Of a stretch of DNA of 64,000 nt, positions 10,085 through 63,934 are shown in pieces; positions within the stretch are counted from its first letter, which is position 1, and the number at the start of each line of letters is the position of its first letter. Source of the stretch: a virus; the IMG/VR virus record IMGVR_UViG_3300028833_000003; one strand, written 5' to 3'. The notes under the pieces were generated by a model. The model had not been told where the DNA came from and ran no database searches. It worked only from the letters and a program-made list of their open reading frames with translations. A program made the translations under genes and the position numbers.

Positions 10085-10792
10085 TTAAGATATTTCAGTT
10101 ACATCATTCCAATAGCGACTTTCCATTAATTCTTTAAACTAACGAGTTAATTCGTTATAGTTCTGTAACATAATTAAATACTAACCATCTTCATAAATGG
10201 TTTCTTCTTCTGGAGTTGGTTGTAAAGCATCTAACCCATACAAAATTTTTGTATGTACTGCTTGTGTGCGCAAATTATATATGTAATGATAATTACTTGG
10301 ATCATCTTCATCTTCGGCTAAGCGATAAAATCTTAAACCAAATTGAAGAGGTCCAGCAACTTTTGTAGCAGCACCTTGAATTATCCAACCAAGTACCATA
10401 TAGCCAGGATAACTCGTTAAATCTTTAAATAAAATTGGCGAAACATGACTTTCACCGGCCGCATTTACATATTCAATAACTGCGGTTGTACGATTTAAAT
10501 CCATATCGTCAAAATAACGAGGTACTTTAAAGAAAATCGTTTCTGCTAAATGGTCTTTTTCTACACTTAAAAATTCTTTATAAGCAGGTTGATTTTCGAT
10601 AAGAATTGTTCGGGAATTTAAATCTACGTCAATTAAAGGAGTAGTAGTAGGACATACCCCGAACAACATCTTATCTTGATAATTCTACTCTATTGTATAA
10701 AGAAGGGCTTTTAATACATTTGCGGCACGATTAGTAATCTCAGGATTTGCTACAACTCCTACTCCAGTAGCAATTTCTTGTTGAGTTGCCAC
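10085..10792 (-). CDS. small paralogue of the preceding N-terminal domain (235 codons)
   Basis: GTG at 10792 lies 6 nt after AAGGAGGG. Three in-frame TAG. TAA at 10085 is followed by a strong terminator. It contains KDHLAETIFFKVPRYFDDMDL...LGWIIQG...GPLQFGLRF. Confidence 0.7.
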
Positions 10793-10809
10793 AATAATCC
10801 CTCCTTATA

Positions 10810-12795
10810 TTAAGTAATGTTAGGTGGATCTTGTGTAAGTTTATTAACTGCAGCATTGCATCTAATTTGAATAGTGCCTGCTTTAGAATAATCAGAGAAA
10901 ATCTCTTTATCAAACAATTGAGTGCGACCCTTAAATGTAAGCATATAGAAGCCTCTGCTACTATCGCGCTGGAAAGCAGGATGGTCTTGCAAGAATTTTA
11001 AGAAATCAACAGAAACCACACCAACGTTACTTGTCTGTGCGTTAAGTGCTTCAAATGAAGTAACATATTCGTCTTCGATAGTAATGTTGAAGGCTAACTC
11101 ACCAGCATCATTGGATACAAACTGCGCGGTAACGCCAACACTAGCTTTATAGTCATCTTTATTTGGTGCAGTTGCTTCATATGTGTCATCACCGATTTCC
11201 GCAGAAGCACGGAAATTCATAATCTTACATTCAACCTGAGTACCAGCGGCGTTCAAGTCAATGTCAAATGCAGGAGCAACTGGATACAATTGAGCATTTA
11301 CAGATACGCCTGCGCCCTTCGTTAATGAACTATTCTGATAGGTATTAGTAACATTAACTGTATATAAACCAGCTTCAGTTGGAGTATATTCTGCGGCAAT
11401 AGCACCATCAATAGCATTGTTATCTTTATACCATTGATAACTAATTTCGCCATTCTCATGGTCTTTCTTAGTTGCGCTAACACTAATGCTTTCTTTATCA
11501 CCAGTACGATTAATAACTAACTCAGTTGGCAATTCTTGTACTACATCAAAATCAGAAGCAGCAAGAATACTGGTCATATCACTATCAATCCAACGAGTTT
11601 CATACTTCCCAGCAGTTTTTTCAACCTTATTACCAATCTTGACATAATAGTCGCCGGGTACCTTGGTCTTTAATACGCTGTCCCAAATATTAGTAATAGT
11701 AGTAGTTGGTTCATCGCCCTCATTCTCTGCAGGAACAGTTTCAACACGTCTATTGATTGTATGATTGACAAGATTAGATTCATTAACTAAATCCCACTCT
11801 GGCCAACGCTCTAAGAAACGTGCTTTCATTTCTGAATCAGAAATATCATCAGCGATTGCAGCACCATTATAATAAAGTTTATAAACAACTTGTGCATCAA
11901 CAAATTGTCCTTTATTAGCTGCTGCGGCAGCATCTAATTCTGCAACAGTATTATCTTCACTTGGAGTAAGTACAACTTCATAATTTTGTACAATATTCTT
12001 TTCTCCGAAGCTCTGTACGCCAGCGCCCTTTGGATAATAATTCAAATGAACAATAGGTGCAGGCATCTGTAACAAACTTGCAGTTCCACTATAGCTTGGA
12101 CGATTATCTACAATACTAGACCAATCAGTTACATCTTCGGTAAAATCACCAGAAATAGTATTCTTTACAGCAACCTTTGCGGCCAATGTGTGCTTTTCAG
12201 CAACAACTACTTCATCAATGTTCTTTAAAATAAATGTAACAGCAAAATCAACTGTACCAGCTACTGAGGCAGGGCCTGACTCATCACCAGAAATGGCCCA
12301 ACCAAACCACATATGTTCATCATCATAGTCGATATAAAGCGCCTTATCAGTGCCAGATAATGTGCCGTTATGCCATTGAATTAAAACTGAACCATGTACG
12401 CCGGTATTTTCATCTAAACCAACACAAGCAGCCAAGTCCATTGTATCAAAGTAACGAGGTACTTCAAAGAATACAACTTCTGCGAGGTGGTCGCCAACAA
12501 CTGCAATACCATTCTTTTGGAAATCAGCTGGGACAGTAATAACACCGCTATTTGTATTAATAACAAAATACTGTTCATCAAATGGAACTCTCACATACAA
12601 AGGTAAGCGAGTCTAATCTATATTAGGCTTATTACGAATAATATCTAATGCTTCGTAATATTGAGACAAAGTTTCTACTTGTTGTAACCCAGAGTCAGCA
12701 GCCAATTGTTTTCCAATAGTCATTGGCTCTGCATTTTCATTCTCAAATAGAACTCTGTTTAAACCCCTAGTTAAGGATTCTTGAGTTACTAGCAT
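10810..12795 (-). CDS. receptor-binding/baseplate-upper-like protein (661 codons)
   Basis: ATG at 12795 follows GAGAAAGGAG. ORF 12613..12795 joins ORF 10810..12600 through a single TAG at 12613. TAA at 10810. The N-terminal domain GDHLAEVVFFEVPRYFDTMDL...WFGWAISG...GTVDFAVTF is paralogous to that of the next gene. Confidence 0.75.
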
Positions 12796-12821
12796 AGCTC
12801 CACTACTCCTTTCTCATAATT

Positions 12822-12849
12822 CGAGGAGTGCATTAAGATGCACTCCTCG
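12822..12849 (-). terminator. 12-bp hairpin downstream of the small gene
   Basis: On the minus strand: CGAGGAGTGCAT-CTTA-ATGCACTCCTCG. There is no clear U-tract, so it may be an attenuator or a stability element. Confidence 0.4.
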
Positions 12850-12884
12850 ATATCTATATACTTATCAAAAAATTATTAAATATA

Positions 12885-13100
12885 TTATACTACTTCGTCC
12901 CGCATACTAATTTCATACCAATTAGTTGCCTCATCTTCTGGCACGGTCACTGTAACCATTTTGCGCGTACCATCTGTTAATAACTTCCCAGCATCTGCGC
13001 GCAATCTAATCAAACGTACATAATATACATCTTCTAAGTGGATAGGAGTTTCTAACACCCCATTAGTTCCAAGATAGCGATAAATAACTTGACGTGTCAT
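12885..13100 (-). CDS. hypothetical small protein
   Basis: ATG at 13100 follows GGAAAGGAG. 71 codons with no TAG. TAA at 12885 is followed by a hairpin. Confidence 0.7.
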   Translation of the reverse strand: MTRQVIYRYLGTNGVLETPIHLEDVYYVRLIRLRADAGKLLTDGTRKMVTVTVPEDEATNWYEISMRDEVV

Positions 13101-13118: not shown

Positions 13119-16100
13119 TTAAATATCTCCATTAGGAGTATAAATAATAAAGTCTGGCGCATCGACGCGAGTACCATAGGTAGGATTGCTGCTTGGAGAA
13201 GTGTCTCTTAAAGAACCCCACAACTAGCTACCATAAGAACCAGTCTGTTCATCAATTCCACCGATAATATCATTTCTACTATATTCTGATAAATCTAAGT
13301 ATAACATAATTGTTTTAGTTCTAACATCATTAGCAAACCAAGCAACCTGGCCATTATTATCTACAGGTGGATTAACAAAATTCTCACGACCTGCTTCACC
13401 AGTAAAGTCACGTCTAAATGGTGCTTGACTGCCATCTCCACCTTGACCATAACTTACTAATGCTGATGTATTAACTGGATTATCTACTGTACCAAATTCA
13501 ATAGTTTCGTAGCCAATATTTTCAAATGCTCTTAATCCAATCTATGAAATATTAACATTGGCAGTTAATACAAGACGTGTATTAGCAATATATCTTGCTC
13601 CGCCTTCTTTATTAGCAGCATCGTCTCTATTACGTAACAAACCAACTGAGTTCATTTGGATAAATGCTCTTGTGCCAATAACCGATGCATTAATTGGATC
13701 ATGCAATACTAGGCGTGTAGCATAAGCAACTGCGCCAGGTCCAATTACATTTAATGACTGTGGTATATCAAGATGACGTAAGTTAGGCATATAAGCAAAC
13801 GCACATGTACCAAATTCTGTAATCCGACAAGGATTTTGTTCATCATTCATACCTTCAAAGAAGATGTGAGTAATTTGCGCATTATGTGTCTGGCCATTCT
13901 CTACTGTTGCTGTTGGTACATTATCTTGGATAATACCATTGGCTGCCATCTTTGTAACAGTATAATTAACTGTTTCACCACCGCCAACATCAACAGTAAT
14001 TGTTCTTGGGATACAAATCTTACCGTAAGCTAATGGGCATCCCTTTTTAATACTAATAGAAACTTCAGTACCTTGAGCATTATTAGTAGCGATATTAAAG
14101 TTTTCTGTTGTACCAGGGATAGGATAATCATATACGCTTACTGTTTTGAATTGTGCGAAGAACGTAATTGGCTTATCTGTTGTTGGAGTACGAGTTGAAT
14201 TATAAGTATAATATACATCATTAGCTTCTGGTACTTCTTTTGTGGTCCATCCTAAGAAATGATAAGTCTGTGCCAATGGCAACATTGAATCATCCTTATA
14301 TGGATTAACTCTTGAGAATTGAATTGGCTCGCCTGCATAAGCAGTACCAGTTAATACATTCCCATCAAAATCAGTAGCAGGAGTAGTCGCATTAAACATA
14401 TACGTAATTAAATATGGTGTTTTAGAATAAACTGCAACTAATGTATAATTAACTAAATTGCCGCCTGTTGGTTGCAAAGATAAAGAAGACAAATTAACTT
14501 CACCCATGCTATTTGCAGGAAGGATAGTACCAGCATCAATTAAATTTAATGCCTCGGTTTTATCTAATTGAGATGCCTTGGCACGCCATTGCTCAACGGT
14601 ATATTGATTTTCGCCATCACCAGCAATAGCCCAACCCATAAAGTCATAATGCAAACGACGTGGTTTTTCAAAATTCTCTGAATAAGATACCTGTGCATTA
14701 CCAAATCCATTTGCATACTTTTGAGTGCCAAACTCATGCATGCTCTTACCTTCATCATCTAAGAATTCAATAAAGCGCGCACGATTAGCTTCTGTTACGT
14801 AATTTGCGGTAATATCAAGTTTATTGAAATTACCAGTAGCCTGATAGTAAGCAAAAATTTCTGCTTCATTTACTGGCGTACTTGAAGTATTATTGATATG
14901 TACTTTACCAGTAATAGTAGGAATTAATTTTTCATTCTTATTTGTAACACTATCTAGCAATGGACGGAAATGATAATTTTCAATGCTGCCTTGACTAATA
15001 CGGTCTTGGATGAAATTATTAAACAATGATAAATTAGTGATTGGGCTTTCACCTTTTTCAGTATCATATAGATATAATAAACCATCACGTTTATCTTGTT
15101 CAAATTGTGTAATATTAACACTAGGATTAATATTACCAGCACCAAAATAACGCACATATTTAATTTGATCTCTATAGTAATAATTTGCTTGCTGTGATTC
15201 ATCATAGCTTTCATCAACAGCTACTTGATGATAAGGTGTCCAATCAGCATTTAAAACTTGGATACGCAAATCTGCAGAAGTACCAGTGTGTGCCGTCGTT
15301 GGATTAGCAATACGTTCTCTCTTTAATTTTACCAAATAAGCTAGCATCTTATAAGTATCATAGCCTAATAAAGTATCATCCATTTGATAATATTGAATAA
15401 TAGAATTGTATTCATCTGGAATTGCAGAAGTAGTTAATGCATAATCTAACTTATCAGTTAAATCTTCTATATATAAACCTTCTTGATTATTTCCAGCACT
15501 TGTCTATGATTTGCTCGTTAAAATTCTAGTTAATTTCAATGGTGAAATCAAAGACAAATTACCAATAGTCTTTGGCAAATAAACTGTAGTTAATACATTA
15601 CCTGCAGGCATTGGCGCCTGTGCAATTTCAGTACCTAATAGTTTTAAAACTTCTAACTTCGGACAATCTTTAATATCTGGATCACCAGTTAATTGTTTTA
15701 AATTACTTAAATCAACTAAGCGTAATAATCCACGTGGTCCAATAGCAAAGCTGGTTAAATTATTGTTGTAATAACCTTCCCTATCATCACCAACTTTTAG
15801 CTCACGAATTCTGTCTGCAGAACCAAGCACAAATTCATTCAAATATTTAGGAGCTAAATCGCCTAAACTTGAAACATATTGTGGGCCTCTTACATAAGCT
15901 AATTGCTGCGTTAAAGCAACACCCAAAGATGCACGCTTACCAATTGAACTTGGTGGCTCAATAGTAACGTTTTCAGCAGTGCCGCCTAATTTAAATTTAA
16001 CACTTGGTGCAGCAGTTTGGTCATATAAGACTGTAACATACTGTGATAAATATGGTGTAATTGTAAATGTTGCGTTAGAATCAAATTGTTCATGGCCAAC

Positions 16101-19100
16101 CATATTGTCATCAGATGTTCTATCCTTATCATTTAAATTATAACGCATTTTAATTTGAGCACTTGTATTAATTGGGTCATATGCCGCAGCACTCCAGTGA
16201 GAATCAAGATAATTAAATCTATTACGAATTAAAGACTAACGTTGTAATGAACGGTCACCTTGTAAGCAATAGAAATAATCAGATGTGATAACTGTTGAAT
16301 GGTCAGGAGCAACATATCCTAAACCATTAATAGCTGGAGCAATATATTTATAAAATGCATCGTAGTTCTTCATAGATTCAGACCATCTGTTACTACTTGC
16401 AGTTTCATAATATTGCGTAATCGCTTCTTGTGTTAAAGATTCACGAATTGCTTTATACAAGTTAGCAATTTCACGAGAGAAACACAACTGAACGTTATTC
16501 CATAAAACCGAACCATTACCAGAGAAAATAGAGTCTGTAGTTCCACTGGCAGAATAAACCTCAATATTAGCGACACCATTGTCGTCAAATACGGTTCTTG
16601 TTGTTAAAGGAGGAGTTGCATCAACATCATAATCCCAATAAACCTGACCAGAGTTATTAATACCTAACTGCGTATCTAAGTCATAGAAAATAGGATACCA
16701 GATATAATCTCCGCCCTCACGTTCAGGACCCCAAGAAGCAAGCATCATATTCTTTTGACGAGAGTCATATAGTAAGAAGAATTCAGTGAATACAAAATAG
16801 AAAAGTACATAAGCCAAATTTAAATGTTCGCTAAATTCATTGCGGAACTTAGCTAAGCGGTATCTGTCATTATCAATAGTAAATTTCTCATATAATACGC
16901 TAGCATCAAAACCATCAATATCAATACTTAAATTTAATGTTATATATTTGACCCAATAAGTTGAATCACTATTATTAACATTAACAAAGGTAATACCTAA
17001 GTCATTTGCTAAATCAACGACATGAGAACCATAATGCCAACGCCAATTTGGTTCTTCATTAGTACCATCGTTACTATAAATAAAGCCTTGCTCACCAACA
17101 TATTCTTCATTAGTATGTTCTTTATCATCGGTTTCTAAAGATTTTAAGAAACTCCAAATCTTACTTGAATCAGTAATTTCAAAAGTAATGTCTGCAGAAT
17201 CTTTTAGGTTACTATTTTTAATTTCACCAGTTTTTGGATCAAGAGTTAAATGGTCTGTTAAATACGCACCCTTTTTAGTTACATGATTTGCAACTGTAAT
17301 GGTAGCAGGAGTGTATTCATTTGTATCACTATCATAATGATAATATTCTACACCTGGTTCATACTCAGTAGATAATGTACGATAATATTTTGTACCAATA
17401 TCACGTACTGGCTGAGAAGCTTTTCTGCCAATATAAGAAGTAACGTCAGTCTAACGAATCCAATCCCAAAGTCTATGCAAGTTTTCAGTACGATTTACCC
17501 ATTCAAAGGCATTACCATCGCCATCTTTACCAGAAACAACACCTGTACCTACCATTTCTGGATAACGCTGTTCAAAATGTTCAGAAATTTCATAATATTG
17601 AACTTCTTGTCCATTAATAGTAGTTGTACTTGTTGCTAACCAGTTATCTGCCACAGAGTCATCTTGGAACTTACCATGACCAGCTTGATTTTGACGGAAT
17701 TCCCAACATTCACAAACATCAGCATATGTAGGATTGGTAATTGTTTTCAATGTACCAGTCTTCATATTTTCTTTATAGTTAGGATCATCTTCATCATCAT
17801 TGACTTTAGTTACTTGCAATGTGTGCAAATATTTATGAGTTGCTGGAATTACAGAAGGATTATCATCAGATTCTTCTTGTGTAGGATCAAAATCTGGATT
17901 AGCCTTTTCCTCATAAGTAAAACCAAAAGTGTTTTCACATTCTTTATGAGTATTAATATTGTAACGTCCAACAAACTTAATGTCGCCTGCGCCATTTTCC
18001 CAGAATAATAAGATTGGGAAACCAAAAACAGTAGTACGATAATTTTCAGTAGCACCTTCTGGATCTAATCTCTTTAATGGGTGCCGCAAATCATAACCAG
18101 CACCTGAATAATTACCTGCCAAATAAGCAACTAAATTTGCGCCGGGAGTATTATGAGAAGAAGCACTATCCATATAATCAGCTTTTAATACTAATGACTT
18201 ATTTTGCATACTGAATGCGAAATCTTGTCCATTAATTTTAGTACCAATAACTATTGTACCTTTATTCTTATTTGGGTCAGTAGCATTAGGTTTAAACTTG
18301 ATATATTTATTTTTTACTTTTAAATCCGCTTCGGTAATTGCAATATTGGCTTCATCACCATCCCACCAACAAATTTGGAATGGATTTGGTTCTGCTACTT
18401 TATCTTTATCATTCCAGTCTGCTGAACCTTGCTTTAATTTAAGCTAGAAATTACGACGTGGATAACCTTGTGAAGAAGTACCTTGTACGTCAATAGTAAC
18501 ATTTGTAGCTTTCCAACAACGTTCTGGATCAAATGGATCATAATAACGAATATTACATCCGTACTTATCGCCCTTTTTATATGGCAATTCATCCATTAAT
18601 TTTTTAACGCCGTCAATTTTATCAGTTTTAATTACCATAATAGGAATTAATTTTTTTGCTTTAGCGTTAGCGTATTCGATAAAGTTTTGCTTAGGATCTA
18701 AAATACCCTGGTTTTTATCATAACGCTCTTTTTTAATTCTCAATGTTGGGCCATCTGCGGTCCAGTTTTGAGTAATACTACTGAAAGGCAAGTCATTCTC
18801 ATAAATACGAATATTATAAAGGTCAATATCGCAATAATCAGAATAAATATATAAACCTTCACGACGTGTATTTGGATCCAAATTCTGCGCAAATGATTGC
18901 GTAAATGAAGAGTCTGCTGGGAAGGTTAAAATATTTGTAATAACGCCATTAATATAAGCAAAAATTACAGGCTTACCTAATGTTTTTGTTGAACCATCTT
19001 CCATCTTAAATGCTGGATTTTGAGAAACAACAAAAGAAACTTTAACACGAACATCATCTGTATAGCGTGCATTAACCAACAAAGATTTAGATAATGCCAA

Positions 19101-21223: not shown

Positions 21224-21238
21224 AATCTATATAATTAA

Positions 21239-22966: not shown

Positions 22967-22983
22967 GTACCATTCATCTCCTT

Positions 22984-24237: not shown

Positions 24238-24308
24238 AACATTTTTCACTCCCTTTCTATATGGCTTGGTCTTTCTATTATATTCAAAATCACATAAGAC
24301 AGATTAGT

Positions 24309-26057: not shown

Positions 26058-26058
26058 A

Positions 26059-31616: not shown

Positions 31617-31619
31617 CGC

Positions 31620-32009: not shown

Positions 32010-32039
32010 ATCCTTTTCCTCCTAAAAGTAGTTATAATA

Positions 32040-38984: not shown

Positions 38985-38989
38985 TAATC

Positions 38990-41179: not shown

Positions 41180-41194
41180 ATTATCACGTACTTC

Positions 41195-56064: not shown

Positions 56065-56075
56065 TTCATTTTTTC

Positions 56076-56600: not shown

Positions 56601-56633
56601 AATAACATCTCCTTTATCTCAATACTTATTTAT

Positions 56634-56662
56634 AATATACCATATTTTTTTTATTTTGTCAA
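56634..56662 (-). promoter_or_regulatory. sigma70-like promoter with extended -10
   Basis: On the minus strand: TTGACA, 17 nt ending in TGG, then TATATT. It lies about 35 nt upstream of the AAAGGAG/ATG of the chaperone-like gene. Confidence 0.45.
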
Positions 56663-56812
56663 TTATGAATCTGCGATAGACGCTAAAGTAGATTTTGAAA
56701 TTTCAGTTATCCAATCTCCTTTTTGTTTATGTATCATTTCATTAACTTGAGTATAGATTTTGCTAATAATTTCTGCTGTACTAATAACATAAATGTTTGC
56801 ACTACCAGGATC

Positions 56813-57904
56813 ATTATATACTAAATAATTAGCACCTAAATCACCAATACCATCTTTCTTTAATTCATTTCTAATAATTTCGTCTACATAAGTTTGACCT
56901 CGACCTGTTAATTCATAAATAACACGTAACTACTATAAAGCTAATCGTACATCTTCACGATGAGTATTACGAGCATAATAAAAAATACTAATTGAAACAC
57001 CATAAGGAAATCGAGTATTAAGCAGATCTAAATAAACACGTTTACTTTTTGTCTAACCAAAATGAACTGAACGTACTCTTGACTAAATGGCATTTGTAAT
57101 ACCTGTCGCGGCGTCTTTAATATATGATAAACTATTATAGTTTTTTGCAGTAAAATAAGCTTTATGCAATAATTTAGCAATATGCATTAATTTAGATCCG
57201 GCGGTTGCAGTAATTGTTAATTCAACTGCATGTCCATTCACATCGACTTTACCATTAACAGTAGTTGTTACAAAATCATCGGCAGATGTTCGTTCATCAA
57301 ACAGGCGTTTAATTTTATCTGCTTCCTCTTGTACTGCAGCATTAGCAAGATCACTTATTGCTCCATCAATCATACTACGCAATGGAGTATGCGCACCTTT
57401 CGTACTTACTGAATGCCCCATAACATTTACTTTTGCGGCACCAAAAATAACATCATTTAAATTGGCATTTTTTGCTCCTCCAAACTACTAAGTCGCCATA
57501 CTGATAGCCGCCAATTCGCCTTCTAAAACATCACCTTGCGTCCAACCTTTAGACTTCAAACCAGTGCGAGTAAAAAAACCTCTGCCACTAGCGCCAATAA
57601 CAGAACCCGCTTCTTGTAAAATCTAACTTAAAGCTTGTTGCTAAATACCACTTTTTAATGATATATTCTCAAAACCCTTATTACCTTTATTAGATAAATT
57701 TTTTAAATCACGAAAAAAATCTTGCAATTCTCTTGCTTCAGCAGCACTACCTGCTCCTTCAACTGCTCCGTGACTATTACCAAGACCATTCATAATATTA
57801 TTATACTCGCTCATTAATTCATCACGCATCGCAGTTAATGCTTGATAAGGATCTAATCCTTCATATGCTTTATATCGTTCACCTAAGTGTAATAATCTTG
57901 GCAT
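56813..57904 (-). CDS. hypothetical tail protein (C-terminal end unresolved)
   Basis: ATG at 57904. ORFs 57641..57904 and 57083..57421 are joined in one frame by about 8 TAG. The frame stops at TAA 56813 immediately followed by TGA. See the finding on the frame break at 56663-56860. Confidence 0.6.
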
Positions 57905-57922: not shown

Positions 57923-57957
57923 AAAAAAAATGGGGACGAGCTTTTTTGCTCGTCCCC
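57923..57957 (-). terminator. rho-independent terminator after the major tail gene
   Basis: On the minus strand: GGGGACGAGC-AAAAAA-GCTCGTCCCC followed by TTTTTTTT. Confidence 0.85.
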
Positions 57958-57976
57958 ATTTGTATTATATCAATAA

Positions 57977-59059
57977 TTATTCACCAAAACGCTTTGGAGG
58001 TTCCTTACCAGAATCTTCATAAATGTCGCCTGGGAATTTAGTATCACCCTCAACTGCGCCACGAGTTGAACCATCATAAAGTGCAGTATCTTCAACAATC
58101 TGAAGAGCAGCAATTACTTTCTTGGTCTTATCAAACTTAGTATAGTCTGGGAAAGCATCCATTGTGAAAGTAAAGGTAGAAGGATCACCAGTAGGTGCCA
58201 TTGTGAAGGTAAAGTTAGACTGAACCTTGCAGTTAGGAATGATAAATTCAGCAGGATAGTCTTCACCAGTTGCTTCATCACGGAACAAAGTAGAAGCTTC
58301 AAGATAATAAGAACCACCGAACTTACCAGCTTCAATATCAATCTGCTTTACATACTGAGTGCTCTTTACATAATAGTCAATATAAAGAACAGAACCTGGA
58401 TCATCGCCCATGCCATTAACGTAGTCATATACTTCCTGTGGATTCTTAGCATCCTTATAAGCATCTACGTTTGCTTGGAACTCAGTGCCAATAGGAGCAT
58501 GAGCATCCATGATCTTACCAGCGACCAATAATTCATTATGAGCAGCATTATAAGCAGCAGCCCAATGAGCAAAGATTTCTTCAACGTTCATTTCCTTAGC
58601 AATATCATCACGTTGAATTTCCATAGGAATACGATTGGTATTAATAGAACCATCAGCATTCTTCAACATAATATACATGCTACCACCCTTGGCTGGCTCA
58701 TGAGCAAGAGTAATCTTACCTGCTTTAATCTGAACCTGCTCAGTAGTATGTACATAAATAGGATGATCTTCATCAGCATCCATGAAACCAGCACCAGAAA
58801 GAATTGAGAAGCTTTCTGGACTAATCAAAGCATCTTCCATTGTAAATGTTACAGTACGGTCGCCTTCCCAAGCTACCAAGCGAGGATTACCTTTACCGCC
58901 CTGAGCATAAACAGTTGTGCTCTGGCCTTCCAAAGAAGAAGTCTTCAATGTTTCAAAATATAACACAGGCATATCCTTGTCAAGATACAACTTACCGAAG
59001 AAACCTGCTGCCTTACGACGAAGTACAACATCGCAAATTTCGCGTACGCCAAATCTCAT
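57977..59059 (-). CDS. putative major tail (tube) protein
   Basis: ATG at 59059 follows AAGGAGGAAACGCAT; the ORF-track start at 59098 is upstream of the SD. 360 codons with no TAG. TAA is followed by a strong intrinsic terminator. It lies two genes (about 2 kb) upstream of the tape measure gene. Motifs such as PVLYFETLKTSSLEG...TVYAQGGKGNPRL recall siphophage tail tube proteins. Confidence 0.6.
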   Translation of the reverse strand: MRFGVREICDVVLRRKAAGFFGKLYLDKDMPVLYFETLKTSSLEGQSTTVYAQGGKGNPRLVAWEGDRTVTFTMEDALISPESFSILSGAGFMDADEDHPIYVHTTEQVQIKAGKITLAHEPAKGGSMYIMLKNADGSINTNRIPMEIQRDDIAKEMNVEEIFAHWAAAYNAAHNELLVAGKIMDAHAPIGTEFQANVDAYKDAKNPQEVYDYVNGMGDDPGSVLYIDYYVKSTQYVKQIDIEAGKFGGSYYLEASTLFRDEATGEDYPAEFIIPNCKVQSNFTFTMAPTGDPSTFTFTMDAFPDYTKFDKTKKVIAALQIVEDTALYDGSTRGAVEGDTKFPGDIYEDSGKEPPKRFGE

Positions 59060-59076: not shown

Positions 59077-59817
59077 TTAATGTAAACTTTTCATCCAATC
59101 GTCTGGTTTACTGTCGGGTTTTCCGCCAGCCAAACGTGATCTTATATCTAAATCCCACCCGACATATAAGCCGTATCTCTCAATCAAATCATAGAGCTGA
59201 TAGACCGTAAGATTAAGGCAATCATCCAGACTCATGGATTCCAGAGCAATGGTGAGAATAGAAACATATCTAGATAAAACACCATCATTACCACCCGAGC
59301 CTCTACGCCGAGCAGCTTCACTACGACCCTTCATTAATTTCGCCGCAATTGCAGCAGCTTTATTACCTTTTGGATTATAATTTGAGTTCTAACCACCAGT
59401 CGCATTATTTAATCCACACACTTCTGTTAGAATTGCTTGCACAGTATCAAAATTATTTTCATCAAGAGTAAAAGAATGTTTTGTCGTAGCGTTATTAAAA
59501 AAAACTCCCATAGGTAAAAACTATGCAGTATATCCTGGGAAAAACAACATAAACAGTTGTTCGATGGTATTTTTCCGCTTCCCCGAATCCTAAATATTCG
59601 GGTTAGCTACTAATGTCATAAATATCTAAAAATTATTAAGGGCGGCTAAACTAGAAGCGCCCTATCCTGTCTAAGATGCTAAAAGCACTTTTCGATTAAA
59701 ACACACTAACTATAAGGCTAAAAAATATTCTTCTTCACCAATTAATGCAATTTCCGCGATTTTAGGCTAGTGGATTGTAGTCTATAACTCAACTACTGGG
59801 ATATTAGTCCCAGCCAT
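59077..59817 (-). CDS. hypothetical tail-completion protein
   Basis: The frame is open from ATG 59817 to TAA 59077, checked line by line, with about 10 in-frame TAG. It fills the apparent ORF-free gap 59335-59817. There is no clear SD, so the start is less certain. Confidence 0.6.
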
Positions 59818-59831
59818 TAAAGCTAATGAAT

Positions 59832-60365
59832 TCATAATAATGGGTTCCGCTAATCTTCTTCTCCGTGAATAGCTTCATAAGTTAAACATAAACCCATCAA
59901 CTAATCATTAAGTAAAAGATTGCGCCCAGTTAAGAATTGAGTTTCCCCAATTCCAGTTAATTTTTTCTTATTGAAAAGACTATCAATTTCACCAGCAATC
60001 TTATAAGGACGTAACTAAAAATTGCCTAAATTCCAATGATCAGGATGACAAAGAATGTCAAATTCAATAATACAATCTCGATACACTGGATTCTTTTTAT
60101 TTGGCTAAAAATTATCCATTGAAATTAATACGTAATTAGGACACTCAGTAGAAACTTCTAGCTAAGGAACTATACGTATCTACTTATGAATCATAGAATA
60201 TTTTTGTTCTTGTGTTAAATCATTTGCTTTTAAACAATCTTTTTCAGTATAATAAAGTAATTTCATTAAACGTTGATCTTCCATCATTTTTTGAATAATC
60301 AACGCCAAATCTTTATCGACCGCCAAGAAACTTGATTTAGGAAAATAATCTTGCCCAACAATCAT
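59832..60365 (-). CDS. hypothetical neck/tail-completion protein
   Basis: ATG at 60365 follows AAAGGAGGAG. Five in-frame TAG codons. The real stop is TGA at 59832. Under code 11 only the first 61 codons are seen. Confidence 0.7.
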
Positions 60366-60382
60366 ATTAACTCCTCCTTTAA

Positions 60383-61348
60383 TTAAAACAATGATTCAAC
60401 AACAATAGTTTTATGTAAATCTTCAATTAGCATATCATTATGAAATACAATTTCAAATTCACCACTAACCATTGGCAACCATTTTACAATTAAACCATTA
60501 TCTTGTTCATCTACTCGCCATTCAACTACATCATCAATATCTTTATTCTAAGATGTTGATACTACTGACCAGTCACCGCGAATACGACGATTTACATTAT
60601 ATTTAACTTCCTATCTTGGCTTAATAAATACTTCACCATCAATAGAAACATCAAATATATTCTGCTTAGGAGGATTAGGATCGGTAGGCTCAATTATATA
60701 TTCATCTCCATGACATTCATAATCTTCTTCTGCGACTATTTCTAAAATACCGGGTGTACTAATACTGTCAGGAGCCTGAACTTTCCAATATCTACCTTCA
60801 AATTCAAAGCGTTGATAACGTTCTAGCGCACGTATTGTTTCCTCAGTGCGTTTTACATATATGTCAAGAGTTAAATTAGGTACATCAGCAGCAATACCGT
60901 GCTTTTGAATTGTATTAATTTTAGTTTCAACAGGCCCGCGCACAGCCATCCATAAACCAAATTTTTCTTTAGTTTCTGGATCAGTAACTTCAACCCACTA
61001 GGCTCTGCGGCAATTTCCTCTAAAATATGCCAATTCAGTTAATTCTTGTTTGAGTATTAGCCAATGAATACCAGACTCTTTTGGCCATTCAAAACTATCT
61101 CCTGGCTTAAAATCATATCGCCAATCAACAGAGATAATCTTTTCATCATAGTCAAATTTTACTTTATCAGGATTAATTAATGCTAATACCCATTCACTGT
61201 CTTCTTCATCTTTTTTAATCCAAGCATGTTGATAAGAATAAAGAAGCGCACGATGGAATGAACGTCTTTTATCTCGAACCATGCGGTCATGTTGGCGGTC
61301 ATTAACCGCGGCACGTGCGCGAGCGCGCAAATTATCTAGTGCGTCCAT
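60383..61348 (-). CDS. hypothetical head/neck structural protein
   Basis: ATG at 61348. ORFs 60998..61348 and 60611..60949 plus the 60383-60610 tail form one frame joined by TAG at 60998, 60611 and 60548. TAA at 60383 lies just before the next SD (AAAGGAGGAG). Confidence 0.7.
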
Positions 61349-61661
61349 CTAACTAATTCGCTAAATCAGTTAATAGTGAAATTGCACTAAAAACTGTTTT
61401 GCGATATATCATAAAATCGGCTTCGTCAAGCAGACCATACAATTCAGTAACAAATACTAAAAAGTCTAATTCACCGCCAAATATTTTGTCTAACCCACGA
61501 AGTTCAAGTAATACAGTTTTAATCTATCCTTGCCAATCCTCTTGATTTTCACGCATCGGCAATAATTTCCAAATCTGATTGACCAGACGACGCAAATCGG
61601 TCACTACAACACCTGGTTCAAATTTGAACTCAGTTGTTTCTGATTGCTTCCCACTTGCCAT
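61332..61661 (-). CDS. hypothetical head-completion protein (start uncertain)
   Basis: The frame is open to TAA at 61332 with two in-frame TAG, and overlaps the ATG of the next gene. Candidate starts are ATG 61661 or GTG about 61605, the latter after an AGGTG. Confidence 0.45.
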
Positions 61662-62211
61662 AATCAATACCATTATCGCTATCTGCGTCGCCAGATCCTT
61701 CATGAATAATCTTAACAGTACCAGCTAATGCAGCTTCTTCTTGCTTTGGAATAGCACTATCATTAAGCATATGCCAATTAGACATAACATGTCCAGTTTC
61801 TGGTACAATTTTACGCCGCTTATATAAACGTTGTGCGTGAATATTCTCGCGCCACACCTCAGTCTTTAAATTTAAAAGCTTCGCAAGATGATTAGCTTGC
61901 GAAGTAAATTTAAAATCTGAACCGCTATATTTCATGCGTGTATTTTCAATAGAAGAAATCTGTCGGTCCAACCATACGACTTTCATTAAAATAGCGAAAA
62001 TATTAATTTCTTCTCTGGTTAAATCAACATTGTATTGCTCTTGATCTGCGTCATAATCATATAGAGCAAATCTTGGAAATTCAAAGTAGGATATGGCATC
62101 TAATAGAATCTATTTACAATCACGAATAGTATCTTCCTCAGTCAATTCCAAATACTAATCATCTGTAATTTTACCAAGGAAGGCATTATAAATAGTTTCA
62201 AATGATGTCAT
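61630..62211 (-). CDS. head-tail connector/adaptor-like protein (tentative)
   Basis: ATG at 62211 follows GGGGGAG. Two in-frame TAG codons (62155, 62110). TGA stop at 61630. The N-terminus MTSFETIYNAFLGKITDDQYLELTEEDTIRDCKQILLDAI recalls connector/adaptor families. The position is right after the capsid genes. Confidence 0.55.
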
Positions 62212-62212
62212 A

Positions 62213-62812
62213 TTACTCCCCCTTTGCCTCTTCTTTCTGCACTACTTTATACTGAGGAGTAGTGCGGCGACCACTAGTTTTAGTTTCGGCCTATACTCTA
62301 CGGGTAGGTGCAGCCTTTACTTCCATACCACTATCAGTAGTATTTGCTTCTTCAGCCTGCGCAGCTTCAACTTCTGCCTTATGCTGCAAAGCAAGCGTTA
62401 TATCAAAACCAGTCTTTGCTTTAAGAGCTTCGCGCTTACGCGCATCATTGCAAGGCAATTCATAAGAATATTTCTTGATTAAATCTATTACACCATCAGG
62501 CGCAAAATCAAGGCAATCAAGGAATGCTTCAACGCTACCATTTTGAATTAAATCAATAACGCCTTTTTCATCCAAATAATATTCAGGTTCAATCCGAATA
62601 GGCATTTCCTTCACTACTTCTGTATCTTCAATAAATAGACTATCACGAAGCATTACAGTACCACCTGGAACAAAACTTAAAGCATCCAACTCTTCACGAG
62701 TAAGATTTTTTACTTCGCCAGGCTACCATTCGCGGCGAATGCCCATATCTGGAATCGTATAAATAAGCATTCTACTACTGCGATTACGCACTTTAATTTT
62801 ATTGTCTGCCAT
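62213..62812 (-). CDS. hypothetical head-associated protein
   Basis: ATG at 62812 follows AAAAAGGAGT. Two in-frame TAG codons (62723, 62291). The frame was checked free of TAA/TGA down to TAA at 62213, 1 nt upstream of the next ATG. It joins ORF 62291..62689 to its flanks. Confidence 0.7.
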
Positions 62813-62841
62813 ATTTTTTTACTCCTTTTTCTCTTAAATTA

Positions 62842-62865
62842 GGACCGCCGCACTGGCGGCGGCCC
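62842..62865 (-). terminator. GC-rich stem-loop after the capsid gene (terminator or attenuator)
   Basis: On the minus strand: GGGCCGCCGC-CAGT-GCGGCGGTCC (7 bp, one mismatch, 2 bp), then TAATTT. It sits between the capsid TAA and the next SD. Confidence 0.5.
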
Positions 62866-62878
62866 TTATATATGATTA

Positions 62879-63934
62879 TTAATCGCCCGTTTCATTTGCA
62901 GAACGTGTAACATTCAATTGACCTTTAAGAGCATCGTCGATATATACGCAGATGTCTGGAGTCATAACAACACCAACGCCTACTTTCTTATAGACCTGAA
63001 TTTCACGGCTGCGATCCTTATTGACATATTCATCAACAATAGTGCTACCTTCCATAACAACCTTGGCAGGCTTTACAGCACCTGGAAGAATATAGCAATA
63101 ACCTGGGTCAATAACCTTTGTCTGATGAGTTGCATCAGTGAAGCCCTGTGGAAGAATAGTAATAGGATGATTCTTATAAGAAGCAAAACGACCATTATTC
63201 CAAATAGTATCCTTCATATTGTCAGAATACATAGCAGCATTAGCAGGACGAATCTTAGAAGCAAATTCTTCAGTGCAATAAATGGTAGGAGTACCATAAG
63301 CTGCAGCGATAGAAATTAAACGATCAAATGCTGCTTCATCCCAACCAGTAACTTCAGCAGTATTAAGAGCTGGAAGCTGATTCAAACCAGTCTTCAAAGC
63401 CTGACCGATTTCCCAATAAATGAGTTCGTCAAGACCTTCCATAACAATACGAGTTACCTCAGCAAAATCAGCACGACCATCAAGGAACTCTTCCAAACCA
63501 ATCTGAGCGGCACCGCCGATAGCACTGGTCTGTACTTCGATAGGCGTATCTTTACCAAGCTTAAATACTTCGTAAATACCAGCCAAACCGACCTTGGTGA
63601 TGAACTGCTTTGCACGCTGACGATCATGCCAACGCATAAAGATAGCCTTGTCACCCTGAGCCATGGTCTTTACTTCGGCAAACTTGCCATATTCCTGCTC
63701 AACTTTACGAGGAAGAACATCATCCATGGTCTGTTCGATTAATTCAAAGATAGTATTCTTATTTTCACGATAAAGAGCAAAAGTGCCTGCATACTCATTG
63801 AGTTCTTTACGAAGGGTCTCATTGAGTGCATCATAGGTGAGATTCTCACCATTAAATGAATATGCAACAGGAGCAGAGCGATCGGCCTTAGCTGTTGCCT
63901 TCATCAATTGAAGAAGTTCTTTCTTATCCAACAT
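62879..63934 (-). CDS. putative major capsid protein
   Basis: 351 codons. ATG at 63934 lies 9 nt after GGAAAGGAGAG; the TTG at 63940 used in the ORF track is too close to the SD. There are no TAG codons. The TAA stop is followed by a GC-rich hairpin. It is the first large gene of a head-to-tail ordered module. Product is inferred from size, position and expression signals only. Confidence 0.6.
   Translation of the reverse strand: MLDKKELLQLMKATAKADRSAPVAYSFNGENLTYDALNETLRKELNEYAGTFALYRENKNTIFELIEQTMDDVLPRKVEQEYGKFAEVKTMAQGDKAIFMRWHDRQRAKQFITKVGLAGIYEVFKLGKDTPIEVQTSAIGGAAQIGLEEFLDGRADFAEVTRIVMEGLDELIYWEIGQALKTGLNQLPALNTAEVTGWDEAAFDRLISIAAAYGTPTIYCTEEFASKIRPANAAMYSDNMKDTIWNNGRFASYKNHPITILPQGFTDATHQTKVIDPGYCYILPGAVKPAKVVMEGSTIVDEYVNKDRSREIQVYKKVGVGVVMTPDICVYIDDALKGQLNVTRSANETGD

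What the first reader, a model, noticed from the sequence alone, without database searches (positions are those of the whole stretch)
10085..63934. TAG usage is strongly non-uniform between genes
By manual count, the putative capsid gene (351 codons), the putative major tail gene (360), the 129-codon gene at 31620 and the 71-codon gene at 12885 have zero TAG. The 2,681-codon CotH/LRR giant has 7, and the 661-codon receptor-binding-like gene has 1. In contrast the TMP has about 100 in 4,551 codons (about 2 percent). The genes at 59077, 59832, 41195, 38990, 32040, 28806 and 26425 carry roughly 1.5-4 percent, which is about half of a typical Gln content. Two explanations seem possible. The most abundant virion proteins may avoid a codon that depends on a suppressor. 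Alternatively, the TAG-poor genes, notably the adhesin-like giant, may have been acquired recently from standard-code genomes and not yet recoded. Either would be informative about how recoding spreads and whether it times expression.
Basis: partly seen in the sequence, partly recalled or inferred. Interest (0 to 1): 0.7.

Follow-up and report, generated by a model that had tools for sequence, protein, structure and literature searches.

The report
Uneven TAG-glutamine use across phage genes
In this phage, which reads the stop codon TAG as glutamine, the two proteins needed in the largest numbers (capsid and tail tube) never use TAG. This holds in about 40 related phages and looks like ordinary codon optimisation rather than recently borrowed genes.

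Summary
Heterogeneity is far beyond sampling noise (chi2=113.6, df 25, P=3e-13; against CAA+CAG, P=5e-10).

The window is the late structural module of a TAG-to-Gln siphovirus, distantly related to phAss-1 and to the Enterococcus EF1 and Lactococcus 949 groups.

The capsid gene and the major tail gene have 0 TAG. They also show a strong optimal-codon signature: CGT, GGT, CTT, AAG and CAG, with no ATA, AGA, GGA or CGA. Across the other genes, TAG/Gln falls as adaptation to that codon set rises (Spearman -0.73; -0.95 in phAss-1).

TAG avoidance in these two genes is conserved:
- 13 of 13 dereplicated recoded relatives, 4/274 against 211/568 Gln codons.
- A second set of 26 loci, 8/502 against 456/1097.

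The TAG-poor giant adhesin-like gene and its neighbours are not recent imports. Their gene order is conserved family-wide, the nearest core homolog is only 49% identical and sits in a recoded phage, and depletion recurs across deep lineages (g23 19/21, g21 16/21).

Best reading: TAG is a disfavoured synonymous codon, purged where translational demand is highest. A regulatory or timing role is not excluded. This is a new example of a known phenomenon, of moderate interest.

The parts
62879..63934 (-). g01, major capsid protein gene. TAG 0, CAA 2, CAG 12. GC3 0.32. Codon-optimised.
   Evidence: Counts. tblastn gives 50% identity to phAss-1 and weaker hits to Bacillus phage genes annotated 'major capsid protein'. 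Matches phrog_4088. Orthologs in 27 recoded relatives hold 3 TAG in 336 Gln codons, all 3 in L044.
62213..62812 (-). g02, small head-associated protein of unknown role. 2 TAG in the window but nearly TAG-free in relatives. CAG-preferring.
   Evidence: Relatives: 4 TAG in 169 Gln codons. Below the connector genes in 13 of 13 clusters. 14/164 in the second set.
59077..62211 (-). g03-g07, head-tail connector and tail-completion-like genes with ordinary to high TAG use. g07 (59077-59835) is the TAG-richest: 9 of 12 Gln codons.
   Evidence: g07 orthologs hold 182 TAG in 368 Gln codons in recoded relatives. g07 has the lowest codon adaptation, 0.348.
57977..59059 (-). g08, major tail (tube) protein gene. 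TAG 0, CAA 2, CAG 9. Codon-optimised.
   Evidence: Homologs are annotated major tail protein or tail tube protein in Bacillus phages Thrax5, Nate and KoopaTroopa, and structural protein in Lactococcus 949-group phages. Matches phrog_2729, virion structural protein. It lies upstream of g09, g10 and the TMP. Orthologs in recoded relatives hold 2 TAG in 239 Gln codons.
57928..57961 (-). Strong terminator-like hairpin directly after the major tail gene: 14-bp stem with 8 G-C pairs, then a T-run.
   Evidence: A consensus match only. It is consistent with a high tail-tube to downstream-gene expression ratio.
56076..57904 (-). g09 and g10, in the position of tail-assembly chaperones. Ordinary TAG use in the window. 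g10 orthologs are TAG-poor in relatives (11/150).
   Evidence: A terminator-like hairpin lies at 56035-56067.
42343..56001 (-). g11, giant tape-measure protein. 4552 codons, 103 TAG. TAG/Gln 0.29, the window average.
   Evidence: Homology to the phAss-1 TMP ORF.
26425..42259 (-). g12, g13, g15 and g16, distal tail and baseplate genes that are TAG-rich (TAG/Gln 0.41-0.53, CAG nearly absent), plus the small TAG-free g14 (31620-32009).
21239..26406 (-). g17-g20, tail-tip and fibre-like genes with lowish TAG use (TAG/Gln 0.19-0.38).
   Evidence: g19 has a borderline match to the phage tail tip domain PF24243 (22.9 bits, just under Pfam's 23.7-bit gathering cut-off).
13119..21164 (-). g21, a 2681-codon giant fibre or adhesin-like protein with a CotH-kinase-like core and a weak BspA-type LRR match. 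7 TAG spread along the gene, at codons 99 to 2647. CAG 19.
   Evidence: CotH is matched by all 9 core homologs (best E=4e-6; the window copy scores E=0.033, sub-threshold). LRR_5 E=0.005. Family-wide gene order.
10085..13100 (-). g22 (71 codons, TAG 0), g23 (661 codons, TAG 1, with an Ig-like/Hoc-like domain) and g24 (235 codons, TAG 3, an N-terminal paralog of g23).
   Evidence: g22+g23 homologs are TAG-depleted against their neighbours in 19 of 21 recoded clusters.
10052..10079 (-). Terminator-like hairpin closing the g20-g24 unit.
   Evidence: A consensus match only.
3..9965 (-). g25 (2612 codons, 20 TAG, TAG/Gln 0.29) and g26 (partial, 10 TAG, TAG/Gln 0.53).

Best explanation
The window is the late structural module of a phage that reads TAG as glutamine. 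In it, TAG behaves as a third synonymous Gln codon that is the least favoured one.

TAG enters genes mainly by C-to-T change of CAG. It accumulates where selection on translation is weak.

It is removed, or never fixes, in genes whose products are needed in the greatest amounts: the major capsid protein, the major tail-tube protein and a small head protein. To a lesser degree this also applies to the g21-g23 fibre genes. Those genes keep CAG, together with the rest of an optimal-codon set.

The likely cost of TAG (inferred):
- It depends on a phage-supplied suppressor tRNA.
- It competes with release factor 1.
- It is therefore decoded more slowly, or with some premature termination.
- That cost scales with the number of copies made. 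For lattice-forming proteins, truncated subunits could also poison assembly.

Shown: the counts, the codon signature, the correlation, the conservation in relatives, and the lack of a foreign origin.

Inferred: that codon optimisation reflects expression level here, and that TAG is decoded less well.
For: (1) Heterogeneity is far beyond noise: P=3e-13 per codon and 5e-10 per Gln codon.

(2) The capsid and tail genes together use CGT 0.81, GGT 0.73, GCT 0.67, CTT 0.48 (TTA 0.09), AAG 0.80 and CAG 0.84. They use no ATA, GGA, CGA or GGG. TAG-rich genes use TTA 0.75, AAA 0.89 and CAG 0.04.

(3) I computed a codon adaptation index with capsid plus tail as the reference set and Gln codons excluded. 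Against TAG/Gln in the other 16 genes with at least 10 Gln, it gives Spearman -0.73 (P=0.0013) and Pearson -0.86. g23, g21 and g02 have the highest index after the two reference genes.

(4) The complete phAss-1 genome gives the same result. Its capsid has 0/15 TAG and its tail gene 0/14, while its TMP has 110/249. Spearman is -0.945 (P=1e-5, n=11) in the structural block and -0.42 (P=0.002, n=50) genome-wide.

(5) The pattern is conserved.
- In 13 of 13 recoded relatives dereplicated at 90% capsid identity, capsid plus tail TAG share is below that of the adjacent connector genes. Pooled: 4/274 against 211/568, odds ratio 0.025, P=3e-37.
- A second set of 26 recoded loci from MAG-binned contigs gives 8/502 against 456/1097.

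(6) TAG-free genes are interspersed singly among TAG-containing genes in one co-directional cluster. This is a gene-level property, not a block-level one.

(7) TAG and CAA have equal G+C content. Yet TAG/(TAG+CAA) is 0.09 in g21 and 0.06 in g23, against 0.31-0.49 elsewhere (counts). Base composition alone therefore does not explain the depletion.

(8) TAG means Gln. In standard-code orthologs, Q is the commonest residue opposite the window's TAG codons. In recoded relatives, TAG, CAA and CAG are the commonest codons opposite them. Genes end only in TAA (20) or TGA (5).

(9) A strong terminator-like hairpin follows the tail-tube gene. This is typical of a gene expressed above its neighbours.

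(10) phAss-1 encodes three CUA suppressor tRNAs. It also encodes tRNA-Gln(CUG) and tRNA-Lys(CUU), which match the CAG and AAG preference of its capsid gene.

(11) A 2026 preprint on an amber-recoded Crassvirales phage reports a capsid gene without TAG and proposes the same cause (10.64898/2026.08.21.746148).
Against: - There are no expression, ribosome or proteome data. Expression level is inferred from protein role and codon bias only.
- The TMP carries 103 TAG. TAG read-through must therefore be very efficient: at 99% per codon only 36% of chains would be completed. That weakens the 'leaky suppression' version of the cost.
- There is no obvious reason why a 2681-aa fibre (g21) should be highly expressed. 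Its depletion is only a tendency across the family (16 of 21 clusters). Several recoded lineages have TAG-rich g21 homologs, for example L168 with 34 TAG against 5 CAG and L179 with 47 against 6.
- One recoded relative (L044) has 3 TAG in its capsid gene. crAss-like capsid genes can also carry recoded stops (PMC7886860).
- The adaptation index uses reference genes from the same window. The relatives are not fully independent phylogenetically.
Confidence: 0.62

Rival explanations
1. Recent horizontal acquisition. The TAG-poor genes, especially g21-g23, came recently from standard-code genomes and have not yet accumulated TAG.
For: - Fibre and adhesin genes are commonly exchanged between phages (general knowledge).
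- g21 evolves fast. Relatives with 80-85% identical capsids have g21 cores only 38-44% identical.
- Standard-code and recoded lineages are interleaved in the g21 tree, so standard-code donors exist in the family.
- g21-g23 form a contiguous TAG-poor block that retains CAG.
- g21 depletion is not universal: 5 of 21 recoded clusters show none.
Against: - The g20-g21-g22-g23-g24 gene order is conserved throughout the family, in both recoded and standard members.
- The nearest g21 core is only 49% identical and sits in a recoded phage. No donor-like sequence was found. g23 has no close relative in IMG/VR at all.
- Depletion of g22+g23 recurs in 19 of 21 deep recoded clusters (P=1e-5) and of g21 in 16 of 21 (P=0.004). 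Acquisition would require many independent imports of the same genes.
- Their non-Gln codon usage shifts towards the capsid-type optimum: more TTC and AAG, less ATA, CGA and GGA.
- g21 needs suppression anyway, since its 7 TAG are spread over the gene.
- For the capsid and tail genes this explanation is excluded. Their orthologs are syntenic, and their identity ranks track those of neighbouring genes (rho 0.70-0.74).
Confidence: 0.1
2. Regulatory use. TAG density is a tuned throttle or timer. TAG-free genes can be translated before, or independently of, the suppressor tRNA. TAG-rich genes such as g07 and the baseplate genes are held back or kept at low stoichiometry.
For: - Borges et al. proposed recoded stops as regulators of late and lysis genes. 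They found gene families that are significantly enriched or depleted (10.1101/2021.08.26.457843).
- TAG share orders roughly inversely with the expected copy number per virion. The tail-completion-like g07 is consistently the richest: 0.75 in the window and 0.49 in relatives.
- Every TAG-containing gene has its first TAG within the first 185 codons, so it would abort early under the host code.
Against: - TAG shows no significant 5' or positional bias relative to CAA and CAG (Mann-Whitney P=0.31; first 100 codons, odds ratio 1.25, P=0.30).
- TAG-free genes sit inside the same co-directional late cluster as the TAG genes. A capsid or tail tube made before its partners has no obvious use.
- The graded relation with non-Gln codon adaptation is what plain mutation-selection balance predicts, without any added regulatory role.
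- The two ideas are not mutually exclusive.
Confidence: 0.2
3. Protein-conservation artefact. TAG arises mostly at variable sites by non-synonymous change, so slowly evolving proteins simply have fewer of them.
For: The window's TAG sites are less conserved as Gln in standard-code orthologs (16%) than its CAA (32%) or CAG (42%) sites. The capsid protein is the most conserved protein in the module, at 74% mean identity in recoded relatives.
Against: - g02 (52% identity), g10 (37%) and g21/g23 (27-49%) evolve fast yet are TAG-poor.
- g03 is well conserved (67%) yet has an ordinary TAG share of 0.26.
- The capsid and tail genes do contain Gln codons (14 and 11), and 84% of them are CAG, one transition away from TAG.
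Confidence: 0.06
4. Sampling noise. The differences are what random placement of TAG among Gln codons would give.
For: The zero counts in the two short genes g14 and g22 are individually compatible with chance.
Against: The overall test gives P=3e-13 and 5e-10. The pattern also replicates in two independent sets of relatives.
Confidence: 0.01

Closest known systems
Partial stop-codon recoding in gut phages (Borges et al., preprint 10.1101/2021.08.26.457843; Yutin et al. 2021, PMC7886860; Peters et al. 2022, PMC9523058)
   Same: - TAG is read as Gln.
- Recoded codons are concentrated in late structural genes and used unevenly between gene families.
- Recoded and standard-code lineages are closely interleaved.
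- The genome has low G+C.
   Different: Those studies stress the early-versus-late contrast and the enrichment in lysis genes. Here the contrast lies inside the late module: capsid and tail tube at zero, connector and baseplate genes at 25-75% of Gln. It tracks codon adaptation quantitatively. The Borges preprint does not mention the capsid, and crAss-like capsid genes can hold recoded stops.
Amber-recoded Crassvirales phage of Segatella copri (preprint 10.64898/2026.08.21.746148)
   Same: It reports that the major capsid gene shows no alternative codon use. It attributes this to pressure on capsid genes to match host translational preferences.
   Different: - It is an unrelated podovirus-like lineage, and the remark concerns a single genome.
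- Here the pattern also covers the tail-tube gene, a small head protein and the g21-g23 fibre genes.
- Here it is tested statistically and shown to be conserved in about 40 relatives.
phAss-1 and the proposed Phassvirus group (Babkin et al. 2023, PMC10607447; GenBank OQ749652)
   Same: - It is the closest deposited genome, with 50% capsid identity.
- It is a TAG-to-Gln siphovirus with a giant TMP.
- It encodes three CUA suppressor tRNAs.
- 41 of its 147 ORFs contain TAG.
- Its capsid and tail genes are TAG-free and show the same correlation with codon adaptation.
   Different: - The window phage is a distinct and much more AT-rich lineage (34% against 44.5% G+C).
- Its TMP is longer (4552 against 3150 aa).
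- The paper lists which ORFs contain TAG but does not analyse why some lack it.
Translational selection on synonymous codons in highly expressed genes (classical codon-usage theory; phage capsid genes adapting to host codon preferences)
   Same: A small set of high-demand genes uses a restricted optimal-codon set. Other genes drift towards the mutational equilibrium.
   Different: The disfavoured codon here is a reassigned stop codon. Decoding it needs a phage-supplied suppressor tRNA and competes with a release factor.

Membership tests
Code-15 (TAG to Gln) recoded phage | Conserved ORFs are interrupted by in-frame TAG, and they become long and contiguous when TAG is read as sense. | tested here: met
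   ORFs of at least 150 aa cover 26.2 kb under the standard code and 64.0 kb with TAG as sense. Reading TGA as sense gives no gain.
Code-15 (TAG to Gln) recoded phage | TAG positions correspond to Gln in homologs that use the standard code. | tested here: met
   Q is the commonest residue opposite the window's TAG codons in 41 standard-code loci: 15.9%, followed by E and K. In recoded relatives, TAG, CAA and CAG are the top aligned codons.
Code-15 (TAG to Gln) recoded phage | TAG is not used as a terminator. | tested here: met
   The 25 complete genes end in TAA (20) or TGA (5).
Code-15 (TAG to Gln) recoded phage | A suppressor tRNA with a CUA anticodon is encoded by the phage. | not testable with these tools
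   There is no tRNA gene in the 64-kb window or in the structural loci of relatives. The tRNA region lies elsewhere in the genome. The relative phAss-1 has three CUA tRNAs.
phAss-1 / EF1 / 949-like large siphoviruses of Bacillota | Homologous capsid and major tail proteins, and a shared head-connector-tail-TMP gene order. | tested here: met
   Capsid protein: 50% identity to phAss-1, 35-36% to Enterococcus EF1-like phages and 23-26% to SPbeta-like and Bacillus phages. Tail protein: 38-40% to EF1-like and 28% to Lactococcus 949-group phages. Gene order.
Translational selection (optimal-codon bias in high-demand genes) | The presumed high-expression genes use a distinct, restricted codon set. 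| tested here: met
   The capsid and tail genes avoid ATA, GGA, CGA and GGG and nearly avoid AGA and TTA. They prefer CGT, GGT, GCT, CTT, AAG and CAG.
Translational selection (optimal-codon bias in high-demand genes) | The use of the disfavoured codon scales with adaptation across the other genes. | tested here: met
   Spearman -0.73 (P=0.0013) in the window. Spearman -0.945 in the phAss-1 structural block.
Translational selection (optimal-codon bias in high-demand genes) | The codon preference matches measured expression and the tRNA supply in the infected cell. | not testable with these tools
   The host is unknown. Relatives are binned with many Bacillota MAGs, and inconsistently. There are no expression data. 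The only indirect support is that phAss-1 encodes tRNA-Gln(CUG) and tRNA-Lys(CUU).
Recently acquired foreign gene (incomplete amelioration) | The gene is absent from, or non-syntenic in, relatives. | tested here: not met
   The g20-g24 gene order is present in nearly all of the 97 loci recovered with g21.
Recently acquired foreign gene (incomplete amelioration) | A close homolog exists in a putative donor with the standard code. | tested here: not met
   The best g21 core match is 49% identical and lies in a recoded phage. g23 has only Ig-domain matches. The search was limited to IMG/VR.
Isocoding blocks (early standard-code block against late recoded block) | TAG-free genes form contiguous blocks that correspond to a separate expression class. 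| tested here: not met
   The capsid and tail genes are single TAG-free genes separated by TAG-containing connector genes, within one co-directional late cluster. Only g21-g23 form a short TAG-poor run.

The most novel reading that the evidence does not exclude
This phage family may hold a natural time series of codon reassignment, with two linked parts.

(1) TAG progressively captures CAG positions. Sister lineages show CAG-rich and TAG-rich versions of the same gene. Examples in g21 homologs: L164 has 1 TAG and 49 CAG against L179 with 47 TAG and 6 CAG; L166 has 0 and 29 against L188 with 44 and 5.

(2) Genes convert in inverse order of their translational demand. The capsid and tail-tube genes would be last, or would never convert.

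The resulting gradient of TAG density could itself have been co-opted as a rheostat that helps set virion protein stoichiometry or timing.
Probability: 0.25. Interest if true: 0.6.

Novelty: new member of a known kind. Interest (0 to 1): 0.38.

Why it matters
The result shows how a reassigned stop codon behaves once a phage has adopted it. It does not act as an all-or-none switch. It acts as a weak synonymous codon whose frequency is set gene by gene, by mutation pressure against selection for efficient translation.

This has three uses:
- It gives a quantitative handle on how well TAG is decoded in infected cells.
- It bears on models of how genetic codes change, because TAG takes over CAG positions and high-demand genes resist.
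- It is a caution for annotation. A capsid or tail gene without TAG does not mean the phage uses the standard code, and tools that look for blocks of one code can be misled.

The family has many interleaved standard-code and recoded lineages. That makes it good material for a controlled comparative study.

Tried and rejected
- tRNA scan of the window and of 30 related structural loci found none. The suppressor tRNA of this phage could not be examined.
- Single-sequence pattern searches of IMG/VR did little. g23 found only Ig-like domain matches. g16 found nothing. An alignment-based query was needed to reach relatives of g21.
- Sequence searches against the PDB with the capsid and tail proteins gave no meaningful hit. 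Pfam gave no significant family for g01, g02, g08, g09, g10, g14, g20, g22, g23 or g24. Functional labels therefore rest on annotated homologs, PHROGs and gene order. I did not use structure prediction.
- Positional bias of TAG towards gene starts: a slight excess in the first decile, not significant. I rejected it as evidence for a gating role.
- Origin of the phAss-1 suppressor tRNAs from tRNA-Gln(CUG): inconclusive. The three suppressors are only 55-66% identical to it, and one shares its anticodon arm with tRNA-Trp.
- CAG preference of the capsid gene as a hallmark of recoding: rejected. Several standard-code relatives also have CAG-rich capsid genes. Very AT-rich standard-code relatives use only CAA.
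- Host assignment through MAG-binned contigs: the labels are scattered (Clostridia, Lachnospiraceae, Erysipelotrichaceae and Bacilli, but also Prevotella, Treponema and Methanobrevibacter). Most hits are long phage-sized contigs, not clearly integrated prophages. I made no host call beyond 'probably Bacillota'.
- Base composition as the cause: GC3 correlates only weakly with TAG/Gln (rho -0.47, P=0.047). TAG and CAA have equal G+C, so I rejected composition as a sufficient explanation.

Full report
**What the window is**

The 64-kb window has 34% G+C and a strong C>G skew on the plus strand. Every gene lies on the minus strand. Under the standard code, ORFs of at least 150 aa cover 26 kb. With TAG read as sense they cover 64 kb, while reading TGA as sense gives almost no gain. 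I defined 26 genes (g01-g26) from stop-to-stop ORFs and Shine-Dalgarno-supported starts.

The module runs in this order:
- capsid (g01) and a small head protein (g02)
- connector-like genes (g03-g07)
- major tail protein (g08) and two genes in the chaperone position (g09, g10)
- a 4552-codon tape measure (g11)
- distal tail and baseplate genes (g12-g16)
- a series of fibre-like genes (g17-g26), including the 2681-codon g21

The closest deposited genome is phAss-1 (OQ749652), with 50% capsid identity. It is the type of a described TAG-to-Gln group (PMC10607447). More distant relatives are Enterococcus EF1-like, Lactococcus 949-group, Brevibacillus Sundance and large Bacillus siphoviruses. In some of these the g01 and g08 homologs are annotated major capsid protein and major tail or tail tube protein.

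TAG means Gln here:
- Q is the commonest residue opposite the window's TAG codons in standard-code orthologs.
- TAG, CAA and CAG are the commonest codons opposite them in recoded relatives.
- Genes end only in TAA (20) or TGA (5).
- No tRNA gene lies in the window.

**Checking the observation**

| Gene | Codons | TAG |
|---|---|---|
| capsid g01 | 351 | 0 |
| tail g08 | 360 | 0 |
| g14 | 129 | 0 |
| g22 | 71 | 0 |
| g21 | 2681 | 7 |
| g23 | 661 | 1 |
| TMP g11 | 4552 | 103 |

g06, g07, g12, g13, g15 and g16 carry 1.6-3.6% TAG. There are 286 TAG in 21,023 codons. Heterogeneity is overwhelming: chi2=113.6, df 25, P=3e-13. It persists after normalising to glutamine content (TAG against CAA+CAG, P=5e-10).

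Three corrections:
- The zeros in the short genes g14 and g22 are not individually significant.
- '41195' and '38990' are one ORF.
- The TMP is TAG-rich per codon only because it is Gln-rich (7.7%). Its TAG share of Gln (0.29) is the window mean.

The real extremes are g01 and g08 (0), g23 (0.04) and g21 (0.07) at the low end. At the high end are g07 (0.75), g16 and g26 (0.53) and g12 (0.48).

**What distinguishes the TAG-free genes**

The capsid and tail genes encode Gln almost only with CAG (21 of 25 codons). The rest of the module uses CAA and TAG, with CAG at 3-12%.

The difference is not confined to Gln. These two genes show a classical optimal-codon signature:
- CGT 0.81, GGT 0.73, GCT 0.67, TCT 0.59, AAG 0.80
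- CTT 0.48 in place of TTA (0.09)
- no ATA, GGA, GGG or CGA, and AGA nearly absent (0.04)

I built a codon adaptation index with these two genes as the reference set and left out the Gln codons. I then scored the other genes. Among the 16 with at least 10 Gln codons, TAG/Gln falls with the index (Spearman -0.73, P=0.0013; Pearson -0.86). g23, g21 and g02 score highest.

TAG and CAA have the same G+C content. Even so, TAG/(TAG+CAA) is 0.06-0.09 in g23 and g21, against 0.31-0.49 elsewhere. Base composition is therefore not the cause, and GC3 correlates only weakly.

A strong terminator-like hairpin follows the tail gene, and others follow g10 and g24. TAG shows no significant positional bias within genes.

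**Related genomes: head and tail genes**

A capsid-based scan of IMG/VR returned 80 loci with 10-kb flanks. I classed 27 as recoded and 41 as standard-code.

In the recoded ones, TAG as a share of Gln codons was:

| Gene | TAG / Gln codons |
|---|---|
| capsid orthologs | 3/336 (all three in L044) |
| tail orthologs | 2/239 |
| g02 | 4/169 |
| g07 | 182/368 |
| g05 | 91/326 |
| g03 | 47/183 |
| g06 | 45/160 |

After dereplication at 90% capsid identity, capsid plus tail is below the connector genes in 13 of 13 clusters. Pooled, this is 4/274 against 211/568 (odds ratio 0.025, P=3e-37).

An independent set of 26 recoded loci comes from MAG-binned contigs in the GTDB genome collection. It gives 8/502 against 456/1097.

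The complete phAss-1 genome repeats the whole pattern:
- capsid 0/15, tail 0/14, TMP 110/249
- Spearman -0.945 between codon adaptation and TAG/Gln in the structural block

phAss-1 encodes three CUA suppressor tRNAs. It also encodes tRNA-Gln(CUG) and tRNA-Lys(CUU), which fit the CAG and AAG preference of its capsid gene.

The capsid and tail genes share phylogenetic neighbours with the TAG-rich genes beside them. Identity ranks correlate at rho 0.70-0.74.

**Related genomes: the giant and its neighbours**

g21 has homologs of 27-36% identity in 17 large phage contigs. The gene order g16-g17-g18-g20-g21-g22-g23-g24 is the same there, in recoded and standard-code phages alike.

An alignment of the conserved CotH-like core recovered 80 more loci. 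These include the contigs of the window's closest capsid relatives. Where the capsid is 80-85% identical, the g21 core is only 38-44% identical. The best match overall is 49%, in a recoded phage. g21 is therefore an old, fast-evolving member of the module, and no recent donor is visible.

Across 21 recoded clusters that are less than 70% identical in the g21 core:
- g22+g23 homologs are TAG-poorer than their neighbours in 19 (Wilcoxon P=1e-5).
- g21 homologs are TAG-poorer in 16 (P=0.004).

The g21 result is a tendency, not a rule. Several recoded lineages have TAG-rich g21 genes in which CAG has almost vanished.

The neighbour-joining tree shows standard-code and recoded lineages interleaved many times. 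It also shows sister pairs in which TAG has replaced CAG: L164 with 1 TAG and 49 CAG against L179 with 47 and 6, and L166 with 0 and 29 against L188 with 44 and 5.

**Most likely mechanism**

TAG is a third Gln codon. It arises chiefly from CAG by a C-to-T transition, which fits the C-poor coding strand. The route from CAA is blocked because it passes through TAA.

Where selection on translation is weak, mutation pressure moves CAG to TAG and CAA. Where it is strong, CAG is kept and TAG is purged.

A rough demand estimate shows why the two major proteins matter. It assumes about 775 capsid and 1000 tail-tube subunits per virion and about 6 copies of everything else. These are inferences, not measurements. 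On that basis:
- Present TAG use costs about 1,700 suppressor decodings per virion.
- Using TAG for 30% of the Gln codons in the two major proteins would add about 6,500.

The steps from codon bias to expression level, and from TAG to poorer decoding, are inferred and not shown.

The 103 TAG in the TMP argue that read-through is efficient. The cost is therefore more likely speed, tRNA supply or rare truncation in assembly-sensitive proteins than gross leakiness.

**Rivals**

- Recent acquisition is not supported for g21-g23 and is excluded for the capsid and tail genes.
- A regulatory or timing role (the Borges model) is not excluded and may coexist with the main explanation. The absence of positional bias, the interspersed arrangement and the graded relation with general codon adaptation make it unnecessary.
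- A pure protein-conservation effect fails. g02, g10, g21 and g23 evolve fast yet are TAG-poor.
- Chance is excluded.

**Comparison with what is known**

Uneven use of recoded stops among phage genes is established. It covers early against late genes, enrichment in lysis genes and depletion in integrases.

A 2026 preprint notes a TAG-free capsid gene in one amber-recoded Crassvirales phage and suggests host translational bias.

What this analysis adds:
- The pattern also holds in a different lineage, the phAss-like and 949-like siphoviruses.
- It extends to the tail-tube gene, a head protein and some fibre genes.
- It has a quantitative link to codon adaptation.
- It is conserved across about 40 recoded relatives.
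- The acquisition idea has been tested and rejected.

I rate this a new member of a known kind, of moderate interest. The most novel reading still open is that this family records stepwise capture of CAG by TAG, ordered by gene demand.

Noticed in passing
L164/L179, L166/L188 and L158/L163-L184 (g21 homologs): Sister lineages carry the same giant gene either CAG-rich with no TAG (standard code) or TAG-rich with almost no CAG (recoded). The combined TAG+CAG share of Gln is similar in both. Standard-code and recoded lineages are interleaved many times in the g21 tree, which suggests repeated code switches and wholesale replacement of CAG by TAG.
   Followed up: partly
L044 (IMGVR_UViG_3300031853_000012), capsid ortholog at 10001-11026: This is the only IMG/VR recoded relative with TAG in its capsid gene (3 TAG, 9 CAA, 1 CAG). 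It is a very AT-rich lineage (GC3 0.16) whose capsid gene prefers CAA over CAG. It is an exception to the avoidance rule.
   Followed up: no
window 42343-56001 (-): The tape-measure gene has 4552 codons. At about 0.15 nm per residue that implies a tail of roughly 680 nm, longer than in phAss-1 (3150 aa). TAG density is highest in the first 250 codons (15, against about 5.6 per 250 on average).
   Followed up: partly
window g19 (22984-24237), g20 (21239-22966), g21 (13119-21164), g25 (2127-9965), all on the - strand: Four consecutive fibre-like genes share an N-terminal motif of the type 'YF(I/T)TD..(E/R)LY'. In g19 it gives a borderline, just sub-threshold match to the phage tail tip domain PF24243. 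This suggests several alternative fibres that dock on the same site.
   Followed up: no
window g23 (10810-12795) and g24 (10085-10792), - strand: g23 and g24 share an N-terminal region (…HLAE..FF.VPRYFD.MDL…) and look like paralogs. g23 also carries an Ig-like (Hoc-like) domain around residues 449-489.
   Followed up: no
window 57928-57961, 56035-56067 and 10052-10079 (- strand): Terminator-like hairpins lie directly after the major tail gene, after g10 (just before the TMP) and after g24. They may divide the late cluster into units with different expression levels.
   Followed up: partly
window, all 286 in-frame TAG codons: The base after TAG is C in 20% of cases, against 9% after CAA (chi2 P=2e-5). 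This may be a context effect on read-through against termination.
   Followed up: no
L107 12536-12610 (phAss-1 record 62536-62610) against L108 10150-10224: One of the three phAss-1 CUA suppressor tRNAs has an anticodon arm identical to that of the phage's tRNA-Trp(CCA), apart from the anticodon base. Another is 91 nt long with a large extra arm or insert. The three suppressors are only about 65% identical to one another, which suggests separate origins.
   Followed up: partly
window 38990-38993 (- strand): The likely GTG start of g13 overlaps the TGA stop of g12 (GTGA). Several TAG-rich genes (g05, g07, g09, g13) lack a Shine-Dalgarno site and may be translationally coupled. All the TAG-poor genes have one.
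   Followed up: no
L189-L253 (genome-contig hits): Phage-sized contigs (130-176 kb) of this family are binned into MAGs of very different taxa, including Clostridia, Bacilli, Prevotella, Treponema and Methanobrevibacter. This points to mis-binned phage genomes in public MAGs rather than to host information.
   Followed up: no
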